Below are positions 3,916 through 64,000 of a stretch of 64,000 bases of DNA, one piece after another. The translations under genes were made by a program, and so were the position numbers. Below the pieces are notes generated by a model, which had not been told where the DNA came from, made no database searches, and saw only the letters and a list, made by a program, of their open reading frames with translations. This DNA comes from Candidatus Magasanikbacteria bacterium CG10_big_fil_rev_8_21_14_0_10_36_32 (GTDB taxonomy: Bacteria > Patescibacteriota > Patescibacteriia > Magasanikbacterales > GWA2-37-8): positions 151,736-215,735 of the forward strand of contig PFBV01000003.1 in the NCBI GenBank assembly GCA_002778465.1, read 5' to 3'. How positions within the stretch are numbered: the stretch's first letter is position 1; each line of letters opens with the position of its first letter.

Positions 3916-4038
3916 ATTTATTATTAATTATTAAATAAAAGTTGGATGACAACTTACTTTAATAGTATAACACAAAAAACTTAACATTGACAACTAACCA
4001 ATAAAAAATAATCCCAATTTAAATCGGGATTATTTTTG

Positions 4039-4110
4039 TGACCTCGCAAGGAATTGAACCTTGATTTCCGGCTTCGCAGGCCAGTGTCCTATCCGTTAAA
4101 CGACGAGGTC
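4039..4110 (-). tRNA. tRNA-Arg (anticodon GCG as read)
   Basis: Reverse complement GACCTCGTCGTTTAACGGATAGGACACTGGCCTGCGAAGCCGGAAATCAAGGTTCAATTCCTTGCGAGGTCA folds as a cloverleaf. Acceptor GACCTCG/CGAGGTC, T-arm CAAGG-TTCAATT-CCTTG, anticodon loop CU-GCG-AA. Confidence 0.75.
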
Positions 4111-4195
4111 AATTCTAATAAAATATTCTGCTTATACAGCAGAACAACTAAGTATAGCAAAAAACACAAAAAAAATCAAGAGTCTCCTTGTGAAT

Positions 4196-4702
4196 TTACT
4201 GAATTTTGAATAAACGACTAATTCGATCACTCAACGGTTCCTCTTCTTGCGCCAAATCTTCCATTAAAAACTGTTTTAAATATTCTCTTGCTTCAACCGG
4301 ATTTATATCGGCCAACGGAATTGTTAAGCGATGTTTAATAACACTTTTCAATTTAAAATATAAAGTTTTTGTCTCTGGCGGATTATAAATTATCCAAAAA
4401 TTTTCCAAATCACTATAAGGATAATATTTAGTTCCCAAAACCACTCCGGAATCTGTTATGGCAAAATCCATTTGAGCCGGTTCTTGCATATCCTGCAAAA
4501 AAAGAATAATACCAAACAAAACAACTATTAAAGCAAATAAATAATTGTTTGAAACAATAGCGTAAATTATCAAAGCCGCCACTAACAATATCATCACCAC
4601 ATACCAACCGCGGCCACGACTATACTTTTCATACTCTTTAAAAATCCATTGAAAAGCAATGTCGCCCGGATTTACATTTTCTTTAGTTAAATCTTTAGGC
4701 AT
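4196..4702 (-). CDS. Hypothetical membrane protein (2 TM helices plus a C-terminal soluble domain)
   Basis: Hydrophobic stretch YVVMILLVAALIIYAIV...LIVVLFGIILF. No recognized motif. Confidence 0.45.
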   Translation of the reverse strand: MPKDLTKENVNPGDIAFQWIFKEYEKYSRGRGWYVVMILLVAALIIYAIVSNNYLFALIVVLFGIILFLQDMQEPAQMDFAITDSGVVLGTKYYPYSDLENFWIIYNPPETKTLYFKLKSVIKHRLTIPLADINPVEAREYLKQFLMEDLAQEEEPLSDRISRLFKIQ

Positions 4703-4726
4703 AATTTGATAATTTTAATATTTATG

Positions 4727-4800
4727 TGGACTCAAGAGGGATCGAACCTCTGACCTTACGGATGTGAACCGTACGCTCTAACCAGCTGAGCTATGAGTCC
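4727..4800 (-). tRNA. tRNA-Val (anticodon CAC)
   Basis: Reverse complement GGACTCATAGCTCAGCTGGTTAGAGCGTACGGTTCACATCCGTAAGGTCAGAGGTTCGATCCCTCTTGAGTCCA. Acceptor GGACTCA/TGAGTCC, anticodon loop UU-CAC-AU, T-loop TTCGATC. Confidence 0.85.
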
Positions 4801-12580: not shown

Positions 12581-12609
12581 ATTATAGCACATTTTAAGGC
12601 TCTTGTCAA
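12581..12609 (-). promoter_or_regulatory. Consensus sigma70 promoter with extended -10 (copy 1 of a 4-copy promoter module)
   Basis: Minus strand: TTGACA, then AGAGCCTTAAAATGTGC (17 nt), then TATAAT. Confidence 0.6.
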
Positions 12610-14163: not shown

Positions 14164-15165
14164 CTATTGGCTCACCCAATATTTTTGCAGAAGTTCGCTT
14201 CTGATTTTTTGCGTGTTTCCGTGTTTCAGCATCCCCAAATATGATTGTAATGTTTCCTCTTTTGGATTTTCTTTCACACTGGCAAACATCCTTCTTTTTG
14301 TCGCCCGCCGCAAAACGCGATGGTCGGGAAAATTAACCCAGCCGAGAAAATCCGCGCCGGAAGCGTAGGTTTGAATAAAAACTTTTTTATCGTGCAAAGA
14401 CAATTTCAGCCGTGTTTGTAAAAATTCGGCGATTCGTAAAATAATATTTTTAAGCCATTTTTTGTCCGCTGATAATATGGCAAAATCATCAGCGTAACGG
14501 ATATATTTTTTCGCGCGCAAATTATGTTTCATCCATTGGTCCAATTCATTCAAATAGACATTGGAAAATAATTGAGAAGTCAAATTACCCAGCGGTAAAC
14601 CGACACCGGTTTTGTTTTCGTCGGAATAACTCTCAATCACATTTTTTAACAGCCGCATAATATTTTTATTCGGGATATATTCATCTAAAATTTCCATCAA
14701 AATATTATGGTCAATGCTGGCGAAAAACTTGCGAATATCGCATTTTAATATCCAGCAAGTCCGGCTGTTATTGCGGCTTTCGCTTAAAGCCATCCGTTGA
14801 AACCGCTTGACCGCTTTGTGTGTGCCTTTATTCAGACGGCAAGAATACGAATCGGCGATGAATAACCGGTCAAAAAACGAATATAATATCCGATAAATGG
14901 CGTGATGCAACAAGCGATCGCGGACGCCGGCTTTGTGGATGTGGCGCGGCTTCGGGTCGCTGATATTAAACGCTTCGTAAGGCCCGTGCCGGTAATTTCC
15001 GCTTGCCAAATCTTCGTGAAGAGATATAATATTATCAGCTAGGTTGCGGCTGAATTCTAAAACATCAGGCTTGGATTTCTTGCCGACAACAAACTCGCCC
15101 CAGGCGAGAAATAAATTTTCAAATGAAATAATATCTTCAAAACTATGGTTCAGCTTGCTTTTCAT
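14164..15165 (-). CDS. DGR reverse transcriptase. The ORF track extends it to 15306, but the likely start is MKSKLNHSFEDIISFENLFLAWGEF, preceded by AGGA.
   Basis: RT domains with LPLGNLTSQLFSNVYLNELDQ (the DGR-specific I/LGxxxSQ motif that replaces QGxxxSP) and YADDFAILS. Size of about 333 aa is typical of DGR RTs. GC content is higher than the host background. Confidence 0.88.
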   Translation of the reverse strand: MKSKLNHSFEDIISFENLFLAWGEFVVGKKSKPDVLEFSRNLADNIISLHEDLASGNYRHGPYEAFNISDPKPRHIHKAGVRDRLLHHAIYRILYSFFDRLFIADSYSCRLNKGTHKAVKRFQRMALSESRNNSRTCWILKCDIRKFFASIDHNILMEILDEYIPNKNIMRLLKNVIESYSDENKTGVGLPLGNLTSQLFSNVYLNELDQWMKHNLRAKKYIRYADDFAILSADKKWLKNIILRIAEFLQTRLKLSLHDKKVFIQTYASGADFLGWVNFPDHRVLRRATKRRMFASVKENPKEETLQSYLGMLKHGNTQKIRSELLQKYWVSQ

Positions 15166-15185
15166 AATAATAATTCCTCTTATAA

Positions 15186-15195
15186 CCCCCCCCCC
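15186..15195. repeat. Homopolymeric C10 (G10 on the minus strand) tract between the divergent RT and avd-like starts
   Basis: tataaCCCCCCCCCCgacaa. It lies about 20 nt upstream of the RT start codon and about 8 nt upstream of the avd-like GTG start. Confidence 0.8.
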
Positions 15196-15203
15196 GACAA
15201 CCC

Positions 15204-15548
15204 GTGGTGATTGGCAAGGGTAAGGAAGCATACCAACTCTGGCTTGTTCTTCATAGAAACTTTCCCAAAACGGAACGTTTTGGTTTGGGTCAAAAAATTG
15301 ACACAATATTTTTAGAAATTTTAGAACTTGGTTATTCGGCCGGATATCTGCCGCCCGAACAGAAAACCGTCGCCTTGGGAAAAACCATCACTCGCTTGGA
15401 TATATTAAAATTTCTTTTTCAAATTGCATGGGAAAATAAACTGATTCCAAACAATAAATACATTATACTGTCTCAAAAACTGGAAGAAATCGGCCGCATG
15501 CTCGGCGGCTGGAAAAAGGGGCTTCTAAACAAAACTCCCGTAAATTAA
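15204..15548 (+). CDS. avd: Avd-like accessory protein (four-helix bundle, 23S rRNA intervening-sequence protein family), on the strand opposite to the RT and TR
   Basis: FPKTERFGLGQKID... and ...LSQKLEEIGRMLGGWKKGL match the 23S_rRNA_IVP/Avd family pattern (FPKxExxxL.sQlrRA ... eigkmL.gL). It occupies the TR-RT spacer. GTG start. Confidence 0.6.
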   Translation: MVIGKGKEAYQLWLVLHRNFPKTERFGLGQKIDTIFLEILELGYSAGYLPPEQKTVALGKTITRLDILKFLFQIAWENKLIPNNKYIILSQKLEEIGRMLGGWKKGLLNKTPVN

Positions 15549-15564
15549 ACGGGAGAAAACAACA

Positions 15565-15668
15565 GTCGCGAGAAAAGACACGGTTGCCAGCGTTCCACCT
15601 GTTCGGATTCTCAACCGAATTGGCGTTCACGTTCCAGCCGTCATCGTTCCGGTTTACGTTCACGGCGC
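15565..15668 (-). repeat. DGR template repeat (TR)
   Basis: A stretch of about 104 bp homologous to the 3' ends of both target genes. On the minus strand it reads ...AVNVNRNDDGWNVNANSVENPNRWNAGNRVFSR with many AAC codons. All 12 mismatches to VR1 fall at TR adenines. Confidence 0.85.
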
Positions 15669-15918: not shown

Positions 15919-15947
15919 TAAAAAAAGCCCCGCACAAGTGCGGGGCC
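15919..15947 (-). terminator. Intrinsic terminator of target gene 1, a conserved GC-rich hairpin also present downstream of target 2. It may also act as a DGR homing stem-loop/cruciform.
   Basis: Minus strand: GCCCCGCACTTGTGCGGGGC followed by TTTTTTT. A near-identical hairpin sits at 43985-44004. Confidence 0.65.
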
Positions 15948-16006
15948 GAAGAGCCAAAGGAACAAAGAGTTAAAGGGTCAAAAGGATAAGGATAAGGAAA
16001 CAAGAA

Positions 16007-16603
16007 TCAGCGAGAAAAGACACGGCTGCCAGCGCTCCACCTGTCCGGATCCTCAACCGAATTGGCGTGCACGTCCCAGCCGTCACCGTACCGGTGGACG
16101 TACACGGCGCGGAGCACTCCACTGACATCGCGAACATAGAAGATGTTCGTATAGCCGTTGGTGAGAAGTACGCCCGGCTCGCCGTTTGGCTGACAATTCA
16201 CCAGTTTGTAAACGCCGGCCATGGTGACTTCGGCCTTGGCTTCGCCGCCGAGGTCGTTGAGAATTTCGCAATCCAGAGAGACCTTGCTGAGGTCGTGGTG
16301 AGGACGCGAAACCGCCACATCCTTCGCTTCCTCGGTCTTGCCGTAGAACCAGGACTTAAAATTGTCGCCGATGTACAAGAACTTGATGGTGATGTTGGAC
16401 AGCTTGAAGTGGTCGGCGATGGCGAACTTGGTGACGGTGCCGACGATCAGGGCGGCGATCTGCTTGCGCAGGTCGGCGTCCTTGAGCACGCGCTCCATGT
16501 CGCTGTCATCCCCGCCGATGTCCAGCACGGCGTTGGCGATGGCCTTCATAAACCCGAAGGCCTTGCCCATCCCCTTCAGGAACTCACTCGTTTTCTTTGC
16601 CAT
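16007..16603 (-). CDS. DGR variable (target) protein 1, with the C-terminal VR spanning the last 33 codons (about 16008-16110)
   Basis: 198 aa. The C-terminus AVYVHRYGDGWDVHANSVEDPDRWSAGSRVFSR aligns to the TR with substitutions only at AAC/GAC adenines. The gene is GC-rich (about 55%), has an AAGGAG RBS, and is paralogous to the gene at 44066-44617. Confidence 0.85.
   Translation of the reverse strand: MAKKTSEFLKGMGKAFGFMKAIANAVLDIGGDDSDMERVLKDADLRKQIAALIVGTVTKFAIADHFKLSNITIKFLYIGDNFKSWFYGKTEEAKDVAVSRPHHDLSKVSLDCEILNDLGGEAKAEVTMAGVYKLVNCQPNGEPGVLLTNGYTNIFYVRDVSGVLRAVYVHRYGDGWDVHANSVEDPDRWSAGSRVFSR
16008..16110 (-). repeat. DGR variable repeat VR1
   Basis: The nucleotide alignment to the TR shows 12 differences, all at TR adenine positions on the coding strand. 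Confidence 0.85.
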
Positions 16604-16699
16604 GACACTTTCTCCTTGTTTTTGGTCTGCCTCTTGCTAACGCGACATGCGCCAGCCTATGGCTTGCCATTTTTAAAGAACATTACATTATAAGCGAAG

Positions 16700-16844
16700 C
16701 TTAAAATTACGGCGTTGCTCATATAATGAAAAATAAATTTTCCATTTATTCACAACTTGCCATTATAAGTGAAAATCTTGAAATGGCGGCGTTGTTCATA
16801 TATAGAAAACAAGGTTTTTCATCTATTCACAACTTGCCATTATA
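16700..16844. repeat. Tandem repeat, 2 copies of about 77 bp (about 80% identical), in the 5' leader of target gene 1
   Basis: Units cttaaaattacggcgttgctcatataatgaaaaataaattttccatttattcacaacttgccattat and cttgaaatggcggcgttgttcatatatagaaaacaaggtttttcatctattcacaacttgccattat. Each contains the near-palindrome AATGAAAAAT..ATTTTCCATT. Confidence 0.8.
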
Positions 16845-16867
16845 GCACATTTTGAAGGTTTTGTCAA
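16839..16867 (-). promoter_or_regulatory. Consensus sigma70 promoter (copy 2 of the module) driving the repeat-containing leader and target gene 1
   Basis: Minus strand: TTGACA, then AAACCTTCAAAATGTGC (17 nt), then TATAAT. Confidence 0.6.
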
Positions 16868-18808: not shown

Positions 18809-18890
18809 GGGCGAGTGGCGGAATTGGTAGACGCGCACGACTCAAAATCGTGTTCCTTCGGGAGTGAGAGTTCGATTCTCTCCCCGCCCA
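18809..18890 (+). tRNA. tRNA-Leu (anticodon CAA)
   Basis: GGGCGAGTGGCGGAATTGGTAGACGCGCACGACTCAAAATCGTG...GAGAGTTCGATTCTCTCCCCGCCCA. Long variable arm (class II), anticodon loop CU-CAA-AA. Followed by a hairpin terminator at 18892-18923. Confidence 0.85.
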
Positions 18891-19053
18891 CAAAAAACTC
18901 TGACTAAAAAGTCAGAGTTTTTATCTTGACTAATCTTAAAATATATGCTATGTTTATTATATAAAATAAACTTGCTCTTTTAAAATTAATGGTTTTTAAA
19001 ATTAATTATACTCACAAAACAAACAACATCTTCTAAATAAAGGGAAATCAAAA

Positions 19054-32237: not shown

Positions 32238-32636
32238 TTATTTTTTTGTTTTAACTTTTTTTGCTTCAACTTTTTTTGTTTTAACTTTTTTTGCTTCAAC
32301 TTTTTCTTCAATTAAAACCAAATTGATATGGGAGGTTCTTTCTCTAATCGGGGTAGCACGTCCATGAGCTTTAGGCATCCATCGTTTCAAAACAGGACCA
32401 CCGTCTACGGTAATACTCTTCACTCGTAAATTATCAACTTCCAATTGAAAATTGTTTTTAGCATTTGCAACAGCTGATTTTAATAATTTCAACAAATATC
32501 TGGCCGCTTTTTTATTCATTAAAGACAAGCGGTCAATCGCTGTTGAAACTTTCCTTCCACGCATTAAATCAGCGACTAGTCTGACTTTTCGCGGACCCAT
32601 TCTTAAAAAACTTAATTTTGCTTTTACTTCCTGCAT
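32238..32636 (-). CDS. rplV: 50S ribosomal protein L22 with a Lys-rich C-terminal tandem repeat
   Basis: L22 core. The C-terminus (EE)KVEAKKVKTKKVEAKKVKTKK is encoded by a perfect 33-nt tandem duplication at about 32241-32306. Confidence 0.88.
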   Translation of the reverse strand: MQEVKAKLSFLRMGPRKVRLVADLMRGRKVSTAIDRLSLMNKKAARYLLKLLKSAVANAKNNFQLEVDNLRVKSITVDGGPVLKRWMPKAHGRATPIRERTSHINLVLIEEKVEAKKVKTKKVEAKKVKTKK

Positions 32637-36407: not shown

Positions 36408-36471
36408 GTTTTTTAATTCAATGGACTAAAGAACTTTTGTTAAATTAGATAAATCTCATATTATCTGCGTT

Positions 36472-36516
36472 CCGCTCGGAAATGAAAATAAATTTTCATT
36501 TCACTCGCTTCACTTG
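36472..36516. repeat. Palindromic element (GAAATGAAAAT-AA-ATTTTCATTTC) in the S10 leader. Related to the element at 43348-43391 and to the DGR-target leader repeats.
   Basis: ccgctcggaaatgaaaataaattttcatttcactcgcttcacttg, about 75-80% identical to the 77-bp repeat unit core (gctcatataatgaaaaataaatttttcatctattcacaacttg). Confidence 0.6.
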
Positions 36517-36523
36517 ATAACAG

Positions 36524-36557
36524 AAAAGGGGGTGTTTTGGTTATACACCCCCCATCT
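36524..36557 (-). terminator. Intrinsic terminator downstream of tuf
   Basis: Minus strand: GGGGGGTGTATAACCAAAACACCCCC followed by TTTT. Confidence 0.6.
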
Positions 36558-38948: not shown

Positions 38949-38977
38949 TTGACAAAACCCTCAAAATGTGCTATAAT
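38949..38977 (+). promoter_or_regulatory. Consensus sigma70 promoter (copy 3 of the module)
   Basis: TTGACA, then AAACCCTCAAAATGTGC (17 nt), then TATAAT. Confidence 0.6.
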
Positions 38978-39051
38978 ATAATGGTATTTAATTAAAGATT
39001 TTGGCTAAAATATCACTATTTAAGCCAAATTTAAACCTTAATTTTAAACAT

Positions 39052-39213
39052 ATGGGAGAAACATTCAATCCGCAAGAAGAAGCTTTCTTTAAAAAAGGTG
39101 ATGAAATGTCAGAAAAAAATGAAACTTTAGCTCAAGGCGAAACCACGGTTGGCGCCAAAAAAGCTGAAGAAGTTGAAAAAGATACTGACAGTTGGTTTGA
39201 AGACAAACAATAA
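39052..39213 (+). CDS. Small acidic protein of 53 aa. Alternatively this short promoter-to-terminator unit is an sRNA.
   Basis: Lies between the consensus promoter and a strong terminator (aaaaaaccccgctgataaagcggggtttttt, 39226-39256). No convincing RBS. The ORF-track start at 39001 uses a non-ATG codon. Confidence 0.3.
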   Translation: MGETFNPQEEAFFKKGDEMSEKNETLAQGETTVGAKKAEEVEKDTDSWFEDKQ

Positions 39214-43305: not shown

Positions 43306-43347
43306 AATATTTTAAATTAGAAATTGGAAATTAGAAATTATTTTTTA

Positions 43348-43391
43348 GCTGAGTGGGATAAATGAAAATTTATTTTCATTTCCGAGCGAAC
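43348..43391. repeat. Palindromic element (second copy, inverted orientation) in the S12-S7 intergenic spacer
   Basis: Minus-strand reading: gttcgctcggaaatgaaaataaattttcatttatcccactcagc, near-identical in its core to 36472-36516. Confidence 0.6.
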
Positions 43392-43409
43392 AACAAAAAT
43401 ATGCTTTAT

Positions 43410-43977: not shown

Positions 43978-44006
43978 AGTGGATAAAAAGGCCCCGCATA
44001 AATGCG
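43978..44006 (-). terminator. Intrinsic terminator of target gene 2 (conserved GC hairpin)
   Basis: Minus strand: GCCCCGCATTTATGCGGGGC followed by CTTTTTAT. Confidence 0.6.
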
Positions 44007-44065
44007 GGGCCGAAGAGCCAAAGGAACAAAGGGTCAAAGAGTCAAAAAATATAAGGGAACAAGAA

Positions 44066-44617
44066 TCAGCAAGAGAATACGCGGAGGTCGGCGCACCACC
44101 TGCTCGGAAACCCAACCGAATGGGCGCGCACGTCCCAGCCGCCATCGAGCCGGTTCACATACACAGCGCGAAGCACCCTGTTGACATCGAGAACATAGAA
44201 AATGTTCGCATAGCCGTTGGTGAGAAGTACGCCCGCCTCGCCATTTGGCTGGATCTTCAAGAGCTCATAGATGCCGGACATAGTAACTTCGACCTTAGCT
44301 TTGCCGCCGAGGTCATCAATAATTTCGCAATCCAACGAAGCCGCCTTACAGAGGTCGTGGTGAGGATGCGGAACAACCAAATCCTTTACTTCTTCAGTCT
44401 TGCTGTAAAACCACAACTTGAAGTTGTCGCCGATATAACTGAACTTTACTGCGGCGTTGGACAGCGTGAAATTGTCGGCGACAACGAACTTATTGACAGC
44501 GGTTTCCAAAAATCCATCCGGATTCTTGAGGAACTTCTGAAAATTGGCGGACGTAACTCGTCCGGCCTCCACCTGCCTAAAAAATTCCTTCATCTGTTTG
44601 AAACTGGGTTGTAACAT
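44066..44617 (-). CDS. DGR variable (target) protein 2, a remote paralog, with VR2 at about 44067-44168. Likely start MLQPSFKQ (AGGAG RBS); the ORF track extends it to 44635.
   Basis: The C-terminal 130 aa are homologous to target 1. The final 33 codons (AVYVNRLDGGWDVRAHSVGFPSRWCADLRVFSC) align to the TR with about 20 substitutions at TR adenines plus about 8 non-adenine changes. GC-rich. Confidence 0.8.
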   Translation of the reverse strand: MLQPSFKQMKEFFRQVEAGRVTSANFQKFLKNPDGFLETAVNKFVVADNFTLSNAAVKFSYIGDNFKLWFYSKTEEVKDLVVPHPHHDLCKAASLDCEIIDDLGGKAKVEVTMSGIYELLKIQPNGEAGVLLTNGYANIFYVLDVNRVLRAVYVNRLDGGWDVRAHSVGFPSRWCADLRVFSC

Positions 44618-44720
44618 TCTATCATCTCCTTGCATCCGCAGTATTTAAACAATACATCCGACATCATTGCCAAACATACTGCCAATAAACCTGACGGACA
44701 CGGTAAAAAGAACCGATGTT

Positions 44721-44749
44721 TTAATATCATAAAAAATATCTCCTGTCAA
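44721..44749 (-). promoter_or_regulatory. Proximal promoter for target gene 2
   Basis: Minus strand: TTGACA, 17 nt, TATTAA. Confidence 0.45.
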
Positions 44750-44753
44750 TCAG

Positions 44754-44787
44754 ACAAAAAAATGCCCTCAACATTTCTGTTGAGGGC
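44754..44787 (-). terminator. Intrinsic terminator between the upstream small ORF and target gene 2
   Basis: Minus strand: GCCCTCAACAGAAATGTTGAGGGC followed by TTTTTTT. Confidence 0.55.
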
Positions 44788-44833
44788 AAAAGAGCGAAGA
44801 AAAGCGGCTTGACCACTTTTTGGTGATGGGCTA

Positions 44834-45010
44834 TTACTTTTCCGGGGTGAAAATGGAGAGCGTGTAGCAACTCAGGCAGTTGCACTGAATGCGAGAAATG
44901 CGGATACATCTCGTTTTGCGGTTGATGCTGAAGTATCGATGAACCATATGAATTTTGGTTTCCTGACAAGTATCACACATAAGCCACTCAAACTTCATTT
45001 TAGAAATCAT
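44834..45010 (-). CDS. Putative small zinc-ribbon protein of 58 aa. The ORF track offers a longer 92-aa form that starts inside the tandem repeat.
   Basis: MKFEWLMCDTCQETKIH...RCIRISRIQCNC, i.e. C-x2-C ... C-x7-C-x-C. Lies between the repeat-bearing leader and target 2. Confidence 0.3.
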   Translation of the reverse strand: MISKMKFEWLMCDTCQETKIHMVHRYFSINRKTRCIRISRIQCNCLSCYTLSIFTPEK

Positions 45011-45076
45011 TTTCTGCTCCTGTTTTTGTTTTATCCGCTCGCTATTAGCGATTGGAATATCATTGTTAAAGAACAA

Positions 45077-45226
45077 TTTATAAATAAAACTTGAAATTAC
45101 TGCGTTGCTCATATAATGAAAAATAAATTTTTCATCTATTCACAACTTGTGTGTTTATAAATAAAACTTGAAATTACTGCGTTGCTCATATAATGAAAAA
45201 TAAATTTTTCATCTATTCACAACTTG
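45077..45226. repeat. Tandem repeat, 2 near-identical copies of about 77 bp, same family as 16700-16844
   Basis: tttataaataaaacttgaaattactgcgttgctcatataatgaaaaataaatttttcatctattcacaacttg occurs twice. Confidence 0.85.
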
Positions 45227-45228
45227 AA

Positions 45229-45257
45229 ATTATAGCACATTTTTGGGTTTTTGTCAA
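45229..45257 (-). promoter_or_regulatory. Consensus sigma70 promoter (copy 4 of the module)
   Basis: Minus strand: TTGACA, then AAAACCCAAAAATGTGC (17 nt), then TATAAT. Confidence 0.6.
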
Positions 45258-62402: not shown

Positions 62403-63233
62403 TTAATCAACAAATTCAAGGAATTCGTTGATTTCGTCTTCAAGCTGATCATACGTCCGACTGCCGAGCATGTCGCCGTAACGCACTCCATCGTTGTAAA
62501 AAATGAAAAATGGGATTGATTCAAAACCAAACTGATCCCCCAATCCCTGAATTACTGTCGTTTCCACCTCAATAATGGTGATCAATTTTTCATCACGAAT
62601 ATATTCGTAATTTTCATCCAACAGCTCATCGCCATATTGAATGGAGGCAAGTTCCAATCGAGGTACCATATAATTACAAGGTGGACACCAAAAAGCGCCA
62701 AACTTAACCAAAACCGGAGTTGAATTATCCTCAAGCATTTCAATGAATTCTTCGTAAGTTTCGGGATGCAACACTTCTGATTCATAGCGATCAATCAAAA
62801 CTTGAGCGCTGATCGTTATATTATCTTCGGTTACATCATAACCATCAAAACTTAGTTCGGACATTTCTACACCATAACTGAAAAACTTAATAGTCGGCGC
62901 AACTGTCACATCAGCATATGAAAAAACTTTTGGCGCCGTATCATAACCTACCTTTGCCAACCACAGCCAAGGCAAATTGCTATTCGTTACGGTAGAAGCG
63001 GCGCTAAGGTAAGGATCCACATCATAATTTTCACTCCTAATGAAAATCACCAATACATTGCTCTGCTGAGTCACCCAGTCGTACTGATCTTGATTTTGAA
63101 TCTCAAAAATCTCTCCCTCGTTCCACGTGTAATGCAATTCGTTTTCATTTGAATTAGAATCGCAAGAACTGAAAAAACACGCCAACATCGCGACAAAAAA
63201 CATCAGGGGAAAAAACTTAAGTCCGTTTCTCAT
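62403..63233 (-). CDS. Thioredoxin-like lipoprotein (N-terminal unknown domain plus a C-terminal Trx fold with WCPPC)
   Basis: Signal peptide with lipobox (LACFFSSC). Active site WCPPC. Confidence 0.7.
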   Translation of the reverse strand: MRNGLKFFPLMFFVAMLACFFSSCDSNSNENELHYTWNEGEIFEIQNQDQYDWVTQQSNVLVIFIRSENYDVDPYLSAASTVTNSNLPWLWLAKVGYDTAPKVFSYADVTVAPTIKFFSYGVEMSELSFDGYDVTEDNITISAQVLIDRYESEVLHPETYEEFIEMLEDNSTPVLVKFGAFWCPPCNYMVPRLELASIQYGDELLDENYEYIRDEKLITIIEVETTVIQGLGDQFGFESIPFFIFYNDGVRYGDMLGSRTYDQLEDEINEFLEFVD

Positions 63234-63441: not shown

Positions 63442-64000
63442 TTAATCTGAAAGACTATTGAGGAATGCATCAATATCAGATGCTAGTGTCTCATAATAAC
63501 GACTGCCGAGCATATCGCCGTAACGCACTCCATCGTTGTAAAAAACGAAAAATGGAATAGCGCTAAAACCATACGTCGCACCCATACTGGGAACTTCATC
63601 AACATCCACATCAATAATGGTAATCAACTTCTCTTCGCGAACCAAATCACCATTTTCATCCAAAAGATCATCTCCATATTCAATGGAAGCCAGCTCCAAT
63701 CGTGGAATCATGAAATTGCACGGTCCGCACCAAGTGGCGCCGAACTTGACCAAAATCGGATTGGTCGGATCTGACAGCATCGTCTCCAACTCGGAGGCTG
63801 TCTCCGCCTTAATCACATCCGCTTGGTAACGATCAATCAGAATTTGAGCATTGACTGCTACTTGTTCCGCGGAAGCTTCATCGATCAAATCCATTTCTGT
63901 CATTTCTACGCCGTAACTGAAAAACTTGAGGGTTGGTGCGGTTTCCACACCGGCATTTTCAAATACTTCCGGCGCGTCGCTCATTTCCACTTTTGCCAAC
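63442..64000 (-). CDS. Thioredoxin-like protein, a paralog of 62403-63233. The N-terminus lies beyond the window end.
   Basis: WCGPC active site. About 55% aa identity to the neighbouring paralog. A near-identical stretch of about 60 nt (cgactgccgagcat.tcgccgtaacgcactccatcgttgtaaaaaa) is shared at the DNA level. Confidence 0.7.
   Translation of the reverse strand, partial: LAKVEMSDAPEVFENAGVETAPTLKFFSYGVEMTEMDLIDEASAEQVAVNAQILIDRYQADVIKAETASELETMLSDPTNPILVKFGATWCGPCNFMIPRLELASIEYGDDLLDENGDLVREEKLITIIDVDVDEVPSMGATYGFSAIPFFVFYNDGVRYGDMLGSRYYETLASDIDAFLNSLSD

What the first reader, a model, noticed from the sequence alone, without database searches (positions are those of the whole stretch)
16700..16844. 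Tandem repeats of about 77 bp in the leaders of both DGR targets, related to a palindrome in r-protein operon spacers
Two-copy tandem repeats lie between a strong promoter and each target gene (16700-16844 and 45077-45226). Each unit contains the near-palindrome AATGAAAAAT-AA-ATTTT(T/C)CATT followed by TTCACAACTTG. The same core, GCTCGGAAATGAAAATAAATTTTCATTTC(ACTCGC)TTCACTTG, occurs singly in the S10-operon leader (36472-36516) and, inverted, in the S12-S7 spacer (43348-43391). These are places where ribosomal-protein autoregulatory RNA structures are expected. The shared element may be a protein-binding operator or an RNA hairpin that couples target expression to a translational or ribosomal-protein regulator. 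It may also be a small repeat family that has spread.
Basis: seen in the sequence. Interest (0 to 1): 0.6.

Follow-up and report, generated by a model that had tools for sequence, protein, structure and literature searches.

The report
Dispersed hairpin repeat inserted in promoters
The 77-base tandem repeats upstream of the two hypervariable (DGR) genes are worn copies of a small hairpin-forming repeat family found across ultra-small bacteria (Patescibacteria) and some Bacteroidales. They were inserted recently next to strong promoters and inside ribosomal-protein operons, and they are not a conserved ribosomal-protein control element.

Summary
Four 77-nt units (two tandem pairs) and two single relatives are present, and chance does not explain them.

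The main interpretation fails. Relatives with 84-85% identical EF-G have tuf-S10 spacers of 59-62 nt and S12-S7 spacers of 21-25 nt, against 153 and 104 nt here. The closest DGR-target homologue has the same promoter but no unit. All copies are therefore lineage-specific insertions. The S12-S7 copy is antisense to transcription.

A covariance model built only from other genomes finds exactly these six sites in the window (E 6e-19 to 0.045). The family is a roughly 65-nt irregular hairpin with:
- a variable, covarying closing stem;
- conserved AAGCGAG / CGAGCGAG internal loops;
- the tip GAAAUGAAAAUUUAUUUUCAUUUC.

It occurs in many Patescibacteria and some Bacteroidales, in both orientations, often just after T-tracts, and in tandem arrays. 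It matches no Rfam family.

Most likely this is a REP/ERIC-like interspersed repeat, and its presence in the DGR leaders is incidental. The real motif shared by the DGR-target and S10 leaders is a boxA-like sequence (GTTCTTTAA) immediately downstream of the units. A functional RNA or ssDNA role for the hairpin is not excluded.

The parts
16780..16842 (-). Unit 1a of locus 1 (promoter-proximal). A degenerate hairpin-repeat copy. Its 5' closing-stem strand TAATGGC overlaps the -10 box.
   Evidence: R1 covariance model: 17.0 bits, E=0.045. Folds at -16.6 kcal/mol, z=-4.9.
16706..16765 (-). Unit 1b of locus 1 (promoter-distal hairpin-repeat copy).
   Evidence: R1: 28.4 bits, E=2e-5. Folds at -18.1 kcal/mol, z=-4.5.
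45170..45232 (-). Unit 2a of locus 2 (promoter-proximal).
   Evidence: R1: 29.6 bits, E=1e-5. TRF: 100% identical 77-nt tandem.
45093..45155 (-). Unit 2b of locus 2 (promoter-distal). The closing stem P1 is broken.
   Evidence: R1: 21.3 bits, E=0.003, with P1 mismatches marked.
36458..36522 (-). Canonical family member in the tuf-rpsJ spacer, in the sense orientation, directly after the tuf terminator T-tract.
   Evidence: R1: 75.7 bits, E=6e-19. Absent from the relatives' 59-62-nt spacers.
43339..43403 (+). Canonical family member in the rpsL-rpsG (S12-S7) spacer, antisense to the operon.
   Evidence: R1: 52.7 bits, E=2e-12. Absent from the relatives' 21-25-nt spacers.
16839..16867 (-). Consensus sigma-70 promoter TTGACA-17-TGcTATAAT that drives the locus-1 leader.
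   Evidence: 12 of 12 hexamer matches with an extended -10. It is one of four copies of the same 29-nt promoter.
45229..45257 (-). The same consensus promoter, driving the locus-2 leader.
16671..16681 (-). boxA-like motif GTTCTTTAAAA, immediately after the last unit of locus 1.
   Evidence: Exact match to GYTCTTTAANA (consensus from PMC5725501). A GTTCTTT-type motif 5-14 nt after the -10 in most of about 40 homologous target leaders (exact GTTCTTTGA/GTTCTTTAA in some; read by eye, not counted).
45064..45074 (-). boxA-like motif GTTCTTTAACA, immediately after the last unit of locus 2.
   Evidence: Exact match to GYTCTTTAANA. Compare E. coli rrn UGCUCUUUAACAA (PMC2724277).
36424..36434 (-). boxA-like motif GTTCTTTAGTC in the S10 leader, about 24 nt after the hairpin repeat. 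It is conserved in the relatives' short spacers.
   Evidence: Alignment A4: the relatives have GGTTCTTTATC and CGTTCTTTACC just before the rpsJ ATG.
36528..36553 (-). tuf intrinsic-terminator hairpin that precedes the S10-spacer copy. It predates the insertion.
   Evidence: The hairpin GGGGGGTG...CACCCCC plus T-tract is conserved in L116 and L117, which lack the repeat.

Best explanation
The 77-nt units are two tandem, partly degenerate copies of a short (about 65 nt) hairpin-forming interspersed repeat. The repeat belongs to a family spread through Patescibacteria and also present in some Bacteroidales.

In this Magasanikbacteria genome the repeat landed in four places:
- once between the -10 box and the boxA-like leader of a strong promoter module, which now exists in two copies (in front of DGR target 1, and in front of a small ORF upstream of DGR target 2);
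- once behind the tuf terminator;
- once, inverted, between rpsL and rpsG.

The family behaves like REP/ERIC-type selfish or semi-domesticated DNA. Shown here:
- It inserts in extragenic spots of highly expressed operons, in either orientation.
- It prefers the position right after T-tracts.
- It forms genome-specific subfamilies.
- It readily makes tandem arrays.

Inferred, not shown: spread happens through a single-stranded hairpin intermediate recognised by a trans-acting enzyme, which would explain the covarying stems and conserved unpaired bases.

In the DGR leaders the units are simply transcribed as 5'-UTR stem-loops upstream of boxA. Any effect on target expression (for example 5'-end protection) is secondary. 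They are not an r-protein operator.
For: Family membership:
- Model R1, built only from nine foreign sequences, finds exactly the six window sites and nothing else below E=1.
- There are 42 members in 30 sources.

Insertion status:
- The relatives' S12-S7 and tuf-S10 spacers are 21-25 and 59-62 nt, against 104 and 153 nt here.
- The closest target homologue (64% aa identity) has TTGACAAAACCGCCAAAATGTGATATAAT, then 24 nt, then GTTCTTTAC, with no unit.
- About 40 other target leaders have promoter then boxA without the unit.

Repeat-like behaviour:
- Both orientations occur relative to genes: the window S12 copy, the inverted pairs flanking atpB-atpE in L145 and rplJ-rplL in L183, and copies abutting divergent start codons in L121, L021 and L135.
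- Tandem arrays occur with periods of 69 nt (JBDRCM01 MAG), 86 and 172 nt (Saccharibacteria) and 77 nt (here).
- Contigs break at copies.
- Mean within-genome identity is 0.75, against 0.61 between genomes.
- A T-run of at least 5 lies directly 5' of the element in 11 of 34 members, against 5% background.

Hairpin structure:
- 91.7% of cells are paired, against 75.5% in shuffles and at most 55% in slid controls.
- 19 of 23 pairs show compensatory changes.
- The window units fold with z-scores of -2.9 to -4.9.

No Rfam family matches.
Against: - The closing stem P1 is the most variable part and the interior is the most conserved. That is the reverse of a MITE with conserved terminal inverted repeats.
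- The internal loops are asymmetric and conserved across phyla. G-U pairs outnumber A-C 47 to 16 on the written strand. This pattern fits a strand-specific functional RNA as well as it fits an ssDNA transposition substrate.
- There is no presence/absence or copy-number polymorphism among seven assemblies of this population.
- Three independent cases place the hairpin just upstream of a boxA-like motif: the DGR promoter module, the S10 leader, and the Paceibacterota 16S leader. That looks non-random.
- In oral Saccharibacteria the element sits at what appears to be the same locus in loci from several species (same 534-aa neighbour at the same distance in four; tRNA-Ser tandem array read only in L227).
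- Density in this genome is low: 4 loci in about 73 kb.
Confidence: 0.6

Rival explanations
1. The hairpin is a functional cis-acting RNA module. Transcribed in the sense orientation, it forms a protein-recognised irregular stem-loop (tandem G-A loops). Placed before boxA, as boxB precedes boxA in rrn leaders, it would help assemble a termination-resistant or 5'-protected transcript for rRNA, S10 and the DGR variable-protein genes. Antisense and other stray copies would be by-products.
For: - Strong covariation with a variable closing stem, as in riboswitch P1 helices.
- A G-U bias on one strand and conserved asymmetric loops.
- The hairpin lies directly upstream of boxA-like motifs in three independent contexts.
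- It lies about 240 nt upstream of 16S rRNA in three Paceibacterota-like genomes.
- The window boxA motifs match GYTCTTTAANA exactly (PMC5725501, PMC2724277).
- For the first unit, the transcript would start at the foot of the hairpin, which is the geometry of a 5' stabiliser.
Against: - Homologous DGR-target leaders in about 40 relatives keep promoter and boxA without this hairpin.
- Many members are antisense to the flanking genes or lie between convergent genes.
- The u-type copies have lost the conserved loops (17-30 bits, against 53-84 for canonical members), and unit 2b has lost P1.
- rrn boxB is dispensable for antitermination in E. coli (PMC2724277).
Confidence: 0.25
2. The palindrome is a double-stranded DNA operator for a dimeric transcription factor that co-regulates the DGR targets with the str/S10 ribosomal-protein operons.
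For: - A 20-22-bp near-perfect palindrome sits just downstream of a strong promoter, at +15 to +40 and again 77 bp later.
- The same core occurs near r-protein genes.
Against: - Outer stems covary, which a sequence-specific dsDNA site would not need.
- The conserved flanks are asymmetric.
- The r-protein copies are not at promoters. One follows a terminator inside the tuf-S10 spacer and one lies between co-transcribed rpsL and rpsG. Both are missing in relatives.
- Members occur between convergent genes and in long tandem arrays in other genomes.
Confidence: 0.05
3. The elements are ribosomal-protein autoregulatory mRNA structures (L4/S10-leader or S7 str-operon sites) that the DGR targets have copied.
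For: Location in the tuf-rpsJ and rpsL-rpsG spacers.
Against: - Absent from orthologous spacers of relatives with 84-85% identical EF-G.
- The S12-S7 copy is antisense.
- No Rfam r-protein leader reaches more than 14-17 bits.
- The same element lies next to atp genes, secE-nusG, AAA-ATPase genes and tRNA-linked repeats elsewhere.
Confidence: 0.02
4. The tandem units are an RNA antitoxin or sRNA array (type III toxin-antitoxin-like) processed into 77-nt RNAs that act on the downstream protein.
For: Layout: promoter, then tandem direct repeats, then a small ORF, then a terminator in locus 2.
Against: - The same unit occurs singly in unrelated spacers and across phyla.
- The downstream genes differ between the two loci.
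- The downstream proteins have no Pfam match.
- The units in locus 1 have diverged to about 77% identity.
Confidence: 0.02

Closest known systems
REP/BIME elements (repetitive extragenic palindromes mobilised by RAYT transposases) of Enterobacteria and Pseudomonas
   Same: - Short imperfect palindromes confined to extragenic spots, often between genes of one operon or after terminators.
- Both orientations and clustered copies.
- Genome-specific subfamilies.
- Hairpin maintained by compensatory changes, with conserved unpaired bases.
   Different: - No GTAG-type 5' tetranucleotide; the element usually follows a T-tract with TAT.
- Clusters are direct tandems, not alternating orientations.
- No RAYT gene was found in the DNA held.
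- The stem is AT-rich.
- The same core sequence is shared across phyla, which is unusual for REPs.
ERIC/IRU and other transcribed intergenic repeat units (about 127 nt imperfect palindromes)
   Same: - A conserved central inverted repeat.
- Sits inside transcribed intergenic regions of operons in either orientation.
- Presence or absence differs between related species.
   Different: - About half the length.
- A different sequence.
- The closing stem varies while the internal loops are conserved.
MITEs such as Correia, RUP and Nezha
   Same: - Small, non-coding and multi-copy.
- Can land in promoters and alter 5' UTRs.
- Short direct repeats flank the window units (TATAAT-like; TTATC at the S10 copy).
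   Different: In MITEs the terminal inverted repeats are the conserved, transposase-binding part. Here the termini (P1) are the least conserved part. Target-site duplication could not be established.
rrn / lambda nut antitermination leaders (boxB hairpin plus boxA)
   Same: - A hairpin immediately upstream of a boxA-like GTTCTTTAA(C/A)A motif, downstream of a consensus promoter.
- One occurrence lies in a 16S rRNA leader.
   Different: - The hairpin is absent from most homologous boxA leaders.
- It occurs in many places without boxA.
- No evidence exists for Nus-factor or N-like protein binding.
RtT RNA / tyrT tRNA-linked tandem repeats (Rfam RF00391)
   Same: In Saccharibacteria the hairpin is embedded in 172-nt tandem units that follow tRNA-Ser, and each unit ends in a copy of the tRNA 3' end. 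These units give sub-threshold RtT hits (28 bits, against a gathering score of 45).
   Different: The window copies are not tRNA-linked and give no RtT signal.

Membership tests
Ribosomal-protein autoregulatory leader (S10/L4 leader, S7 str site) | Structure conserved at the orthologous position in related genomes | tested here: not met
   Three relatives (EF-G 84-85% identical) have S12-S7 spacers of 21-25 nt, and the two whose loci reach the tuf-S10 spacer have 59-62 nt, none with the element.
Ribosomal-protein autoregulatory leader (S10/L4 leader, S7 str site) | Lies in the sense strand of the regulated mRNA | tested here: not met
   The S12-S7 copy is on the + strand while the operon is on the - strand. 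The S10 copy is sense.
Ribosomal-protein autoregulatory leader (S10/L4 leader, S7 str site) | Matches a curated r-protein leader model | tested here: not met
   Rfam gathering and E-value searches give only noise (L20_leader 13.9 bits, L10_leader 13.9 bits).
REP/BIME (RAYT-associated) | Short extragenic imperfect palindromes, multi-copy, in both orientations | tested here: met
   Six copies in the window and 42 in the held loci, in both orientations.
REP/BIME (RAYT-associated) | Conserved 5' GTAG-type tetranucleotide next to the hairpin | tested here: not met
   The 5' flank is a T-tract followed by TAT in many members; no GTAG is present.
REP/BIME (RAYT-associated) | A RAYT (Y1/HUH) transposase gene in the genome, typically flanked by inverted repeats | tested here: inconclusive
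Whole genomes were not available.
MITE | Conserved terminal inverted repeats | tested here: not met
   The terminal stem P1 shows UA, AU, CG and GC at the same columns and is the least conserved part.
MITE | Target-site duplication | tested here: inconclusive
   TATAAT(GG)/TATAAA direct repeats bound each 77-nt unit, and TTATC flanks the S10 copy. The empty sites in relatives are too diverged to prove duplication.
rrn-type antitermination leader (boxB-boxA) | BoxA consensus downstream of the promoter | tested here: met
   GTTCTTTAAAA and GTTCTTTAACA match GYTCTTTAANA exactly (PMC5725501). The position is conserved in about 40 homologous leaders.
rrn-type antitermination leader (boxB-boxA) | NusB/NusE binding and termination-resistant transcription | not testable with these tools
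   Needs binding and transcription assays.
Type III toxin-antitoxin RNA array | Tandem repeats specific to the locus, followed by a terminator and an endoribonuclease toxin gene | tested here: not met
   The units are members of a dispersed family. The downstream proteins have no Pfam match and differ between loci.
RtT / tRNA-linked repeats (RF00391) | Tandem units downstream of a tRNA gene, each ending with the tRNA 3' end | tested here: not met
   True for the Saccharibacteria variant but not for any window copy. The window tRNAs are at 4038-4800 and 18809-18891.

The most novel reading that the evidence does not exclude
The hairpin is not junk. It is a protein-recognised structured RNA (or single-stranded DNA) module conserved from Patescibacteria to Bacteroidales. 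Together with boxA it builds an rRNA-like (boxB-boxA) leader. This organism has recruited that leader, in duplicate, to drive termination-resistant or 5'-protected expression of its DGR variable-protein genes, and it also marks the S10 (NusE) operon.
Probability: 0.12. Interest if true: 0.75.

Novelty: new variant of a known kind. Interest (0 to 1): 0.42.

Why it matters
- It removes a tempting but wrong link between DGR targets and ribosomal-protein autoregulation.
- It defines, with a working covariance model, a hairpin-repeat family that matches no Rfam 15 family and was not found in two literature searches. The family is shared by many candidate-phyla-radiation lineages and some Bacteroidales. 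It has clear covariation and conserved non-canonical loops, and no known mobilising enzyme or binding protein.
- Such repeats break assemblies, reshape promoters and operon spacers in very small genomes, and may reveal a new ssDNA or RNA recognition system.
- The analysis also exposed that DGR target genes of these bacteria carry consensus promoters followed by a boxA-like motif and often a long conserved hairpin. This suggests rRNA-style transcription control of hypervariable proteins.

Tried and rejected
- Rfam at gathering and E-value thresholds, on the window and on 18 family-bearing loci: only tRNAs, 16S and noise. The sub-threshold RtT hit (TM7 unit, 28 bits against a gathering score of 45) and the STnc150 hit (L159, 31 bits against 60) were inspected and judged not to identify the family.
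- Viral-contig scans with two patterns: only chance hits.
- A plus-strand promoter inside each unit (TTGAAA-15-TATAAT): rejected, because nothing lies downstream on that strand in locus 1 and the spacing is poor.
- DnaA-box or origin reading of TTATTCACA next to parAB: rejected, because the same units occur 28 kb away and the GC skew shows no switch.
- Known operator consensus sequences (Rex, ArgR, Fur/Zur, CodY) recalled from memory: none fits the spacing.
- A tiny conserved peptide (MKIYFHF...) across the palindrome: the reading frames and stop positions differ between members.
- Internal outward promoters (TTTTCA-16/17-GATAAT on both strands): not general, because P1 covaries to non-promoter sequences.
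- A second, downstream hairpin as a fixed part of the element: on average no more stable than background.
- Copy-number polymorphism among assemblies of the same population: none.
- HUH transposase search in the held DNA: negative.
- Literature searches by sequence string and by topic found no description of this family.

Full report
**What is in the sequence**

The window is about 33% G+C and carries a genuine diversity-generating retroelement (DGR) on the minus strand.
- The reverse transcriptase is at 14164-15306 (Pfam RVT_1).
- A bAvd-like protein is at 15204-15548.
- The template repeat lies around 15568-15668.
- Two paralogous targets end in variable repeats: 16007-16603 and 44066-44635.
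- All TR-to-VR1 differences fall at TR adenines.

Directly upstream of target 1, and about 440 nt upstream of target 2, lies the same perfect promoter, TTGACA-17-TGcTATAAT. Two 77-nt units follow it immediately.
- In locus 2 the units are 100% identical (TRF score 300).
- In locus 1 they are about 77% identical.
- The near-palindrome and the CAAGTTGTGAAT block occur far more often than in shuffled sequence.
- Two single relatives share a 29-nt exact inverted match. One is in the tuf-rpsJ spacer (sense), the other in the rpsL-rpsG spacer (antisense).

In locus 2 the promoter and repeats are followed by a 58-aa Cys-rich ORF, a terminator, and a second promoter before target 2.

**The copies are recent insertions**

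The organism is a Candidatus Magasanikbacteria MAG (EF-G 100% identical). Three relatives with 84-85% identical EF-G keep the gene order rpsL, rpsG, fusA; two of the loci extend on to tuf and rpsJ.
- Their S12-S7 spacers are 21-25 nt, against 104 nt here.
- Their tuf-S10 spacers are 59-62 nt, against 153 nt here.
- The tuf terminator hairpin and a GTTCTTTA motif before rpsJ are conserved. The palindromic element is the extra material.

The closest DGR-target homologue (64% aa identity) has the same promoter (TTGACAAAACCGCCAAAATGTGATATAAT). It then has 24 nt and GTTCTTTAC, with no unit.

About 40 more distant target homologues also have a consensus promoter, in most of them followed after 5-14 nt by a GTTCTTT-type (boxA-like) motif (exact GTTCTTTGA/GTTCTTTAA in some). 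None has the unit. The one exception is a contig from the same species.

In both window loci this motif follows the last unit directly (TATAATGTAATGTTCTTTAAAAA and TATAAATTGTTCTTTAACAA). The two-unit block therefore sits as an insertion between the -10 box and the ancestral start of the leader.

**The units belong to a large family**

About 40 of these are clearly homologous elements.
- In Patescibacteria they occur in Magasanik-, Parcu-, Nealson-, Portnoy- and Saccharibacteria, Paceibacterota and Minisyncoccia.
- In Bacteroidales they occur in Enterocola, Muribaculaceae and Bacteroidaceae.

All fold into the same irregular hairpin, from the base to the tip:
- closing stem P1 (5-13 bp, sequence variable);
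- a short GCG/CGC helix;
- an internal loop;
- a GY/GC helix;
- a tandem GA/GA loop;
- a G-C pair and a bulge;
- a 10-bp distal stem GAAAUGAAAA/UUUUCAUUUC capped by UUUA.

I built a covariance model (R1) from nine foreign members only. With filters off it finds exactly the six window sites and nothing else below E=1:

| Site | Bits |
|---|---|
| tuf-S10 spacer copy | 75.7 |
| S12-S7 spacer copy | 52.7 |
| unit 2a | 29.6 |
| unit 1b | 28.4 |
| unit 2b | 21.3 |
| unit 1a | 17.0 |

The 9.2 kb beyond the window end holds no further copy.

On 42 aligned members:
- 91.7% of cells are paired, against 75.5% in column shuffles and at most 55% when partners are slid;
- 19 of 23 pairs show compensatory changes.

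The caveat is that this alignment was fitted to the model.

G-U pairs outnumber A-C 47 to 16 on the written strand. No Rfam 15 family matches, and two literature searches found no description.

**How the family behaves**

- Members lie in extragenic positions of housekeeping operons. Examples are between secE and nusG, after rplL, before rplJ, around atpB-atpE, about 240 nt before 16S rRNA, and after small genes between convergent neighbours.
- Orientation relative to flanking genes is mixed. Some copies abut divergent start codons.
- A T-run of five or more, usually the U-tract of an intrinsic terminator, lies immediately 5' in 11 of 34 members, against 5% background.
- Copies within a genome resemble each other more than copies in other genomes (0.75 against 0.61). 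Several pairs are 98-100% identical, including their flanks.
- Tandem arrays recur: 69 nt in one MAG (often at contig ends), 86 and 172 nt in Saccharibacteria, and 77 nt here.
- In oral Saccharibacteria (read in full in L227) the hairpin is embedded in tRNA-Ser-linked tandem units that weakly resemble E. coli RtT.
- One Bacteroidales locus shows a second element with the same base but a different tip. The family is therefore broader than my search pattern.

**Interpretation**

These properties are those of REP/ERIC-like interspersed hairpin repeats:
- lineage-specific insertion;
- both orientations;
- genome-specific subfamilies;
- tandem amplification;
- a preference for terminator-proximal and promoter-proximal AT-rich sites.

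I take that as the best explanation (confidence about 0.6). The u-type units in the DGR leaders are degenerate members. They have lost the AAGCGAG/CGAGCGAG loops, and in unit 2b the closing stem as well. This argues that their presence there is incidental.

They are transcribed as 5'-UTR stem-loops, with z-scores of -2.9 to -4.9. The promoter + two units + boxA module was copied between the two loci, and the sequence after boxA is unrelated between them.

That the family moves through a single-stranded hairpin recognised by an HUH-type enzyme is inference only.

**What speaks for a function instead**

- The variable-but-paired closing stem, the conserved asymmetric loops and the G-U bias are also the signature of a protein-binding RNA.
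- In three independent contexts the hairpin sits just before a boxA-like motif: the DGR promoter module, the S10 leader, and a 16S leader.
- The window motifs GTTCTTTAAAA and GTTCTTTAACA match the published BoxA consensus GYTCTTTAANA and the E. coli rrn sequence UGCUCUUUAACAA (PMC5725501; PMC2724277). In E. coli, rrn leaders have a boxB hairpin before boxA.
- I give a functional cis-RNA reading about 0.25. The mixed orientations, the absence of the hairpin from homologous boxA leaders and the decay of the u-type copies all count against it.
- A dsDNA operator (0.05), an r-protein autoregulatory site (0.02) and a type III TA-like array (0.02) are poorly supported.

**Verdict**

The regulatory coupling to ribosomal proteins is not supported by the palindrome. 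If any such coupling exists, it runs through the boxA-like motif, which binds NusB-S10 in model bacteria.

The family itself is, to my knowledge and by Rfam, undescribed, and it has unusual features for a bacterial repeat. I rate it a new variant of a known kind, with moderate interest.

Noticed in passing
window 16671-16681(-), 45064-45074(-), 44705-44713(-), 36424-36434(-); loci L013-L091 and L245 upstream of target genes: DGR target genes of this organism and about 40 Patescibacteria relatives are preceded by a consensus TTGACA-17-TATAAT promoter. A boxA-like motif (GTTCTTTGA/GTTCTTTAA, matching GYTCTTTAANA) follows 5-25 nt later. This suggests rRNA-style Nus-factor control of hypervariable protein genes. 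The S10 (NusE) leader carries a similar motif, which is conserved in relatives.
   Followed up: partly
L016, L017, L020, L022, L035, L038, L047, L053, L055, L064, L087 (about 30-150 nt upstream of the target start codons): Many homologous target leaders share a long conserved hairpin after boxA: GCGAaTTTCGCCACAGC...GCTGTGGCGAAAcCAA..GGC.AAGCCC.ACAGC. This is a candidate structured 5' leader RNA specific to this DGR target family. The window targets lack it.
   Followed up: no
window 12581-12609(-), 16839-16867(-), 38949-38977(+), 45229-45257(-): The same 29-nt consensus promoter occurs four times. The copy at 12609 is followed only by a roughly 100-nt stretch ending in a strong hairpin plus T-tract (GAATACCGCTCCGTTTTACGGGGCGGTATTC, about 12545-12510), which could be a small RNA. 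The copy at 38949 drives a 56-aa ORF (39043-39213) with its own terminator.
   Followed up: no
window 44834-45010(-), 44763-44788(-), 44721-44749(-): Three features lie between the locus-2 repeat module and target 2: a 58-aa Cys-rich (CxxC...CxCxxC) ORF with no Pfam match, an intrinsic terminator, and a separate TTGACA-17-TATTAA promoter with its own GTTCTTTTT motif. Target 2 therefore has its own transcription start.
   Followed up: partly
window 15926-15947(-) and 43990-44011(-); 15921-15983 vs 43985-44047: A 90% conserved 63-nt block with a GC-rich hairpin (GGCCCCGCAnnTGCGGGGC plus T-tract) lies just 3' of both variable repeats. This is the position of the hairpin/cruciform known to assist DGR retrohoming, and it doubles as a terminator.
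   Followed up: no
L227 1219-1870 (TM7 oral taxon 351), and the orthologous loci L128, L203, L205, L209, L217, L229: A tRNA-Ser(GGA) gene is followed by three tandem units of about 172 nt. Each unit ends in a copy of the tRNA 3' end (AATCCTCTCGCTTCCGCCA) and contains the conserved hairpin. Rfam gives sub-threshold RtT hits (28 and 21 bits). The arrangement looks like repeated integration at the tRNA T-loop.
   Followed up: partly
L135 330-400(-): A second element next to the first has the same base (AAGCGAGTGAAGATGCA...TGCATCTTCCGAGCG) but a different loop. The family is therefore larger than the AAAATTTATTTT-tipped subset that was searched for.
   Followed up: no
L121 4380-4410 and 5095-5130(-); L188 about 4640-4675(-): The palindrome AAAATACCTTGGTATTTT directly follows the hairpin repeat in both a Magasanikbacteria and a Parcubacteria genome. 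This suggests a larger composite repeat unit shared between distant lineages.
   Followed up: no
window 62403-63233(-) and 63442-63999(-): Two adjacent thioredoxin-domain paralogues are 73-77% identical at the DNA level over several blocks (repeat families D4, D6, D7). This is a local tandem gene duplication.
   Followed up: no
window 32241-32305: A perfect 30-nt (15-nt sub-period) tandem repeat, TTTTTTTGYTTYAAC, lies at the 3' end of a minus-strand ribosomal-protein-cluster ORF (32238-32636). It encodes a Lys/Val/Glu-rich repeat tail.
   Followed up: no
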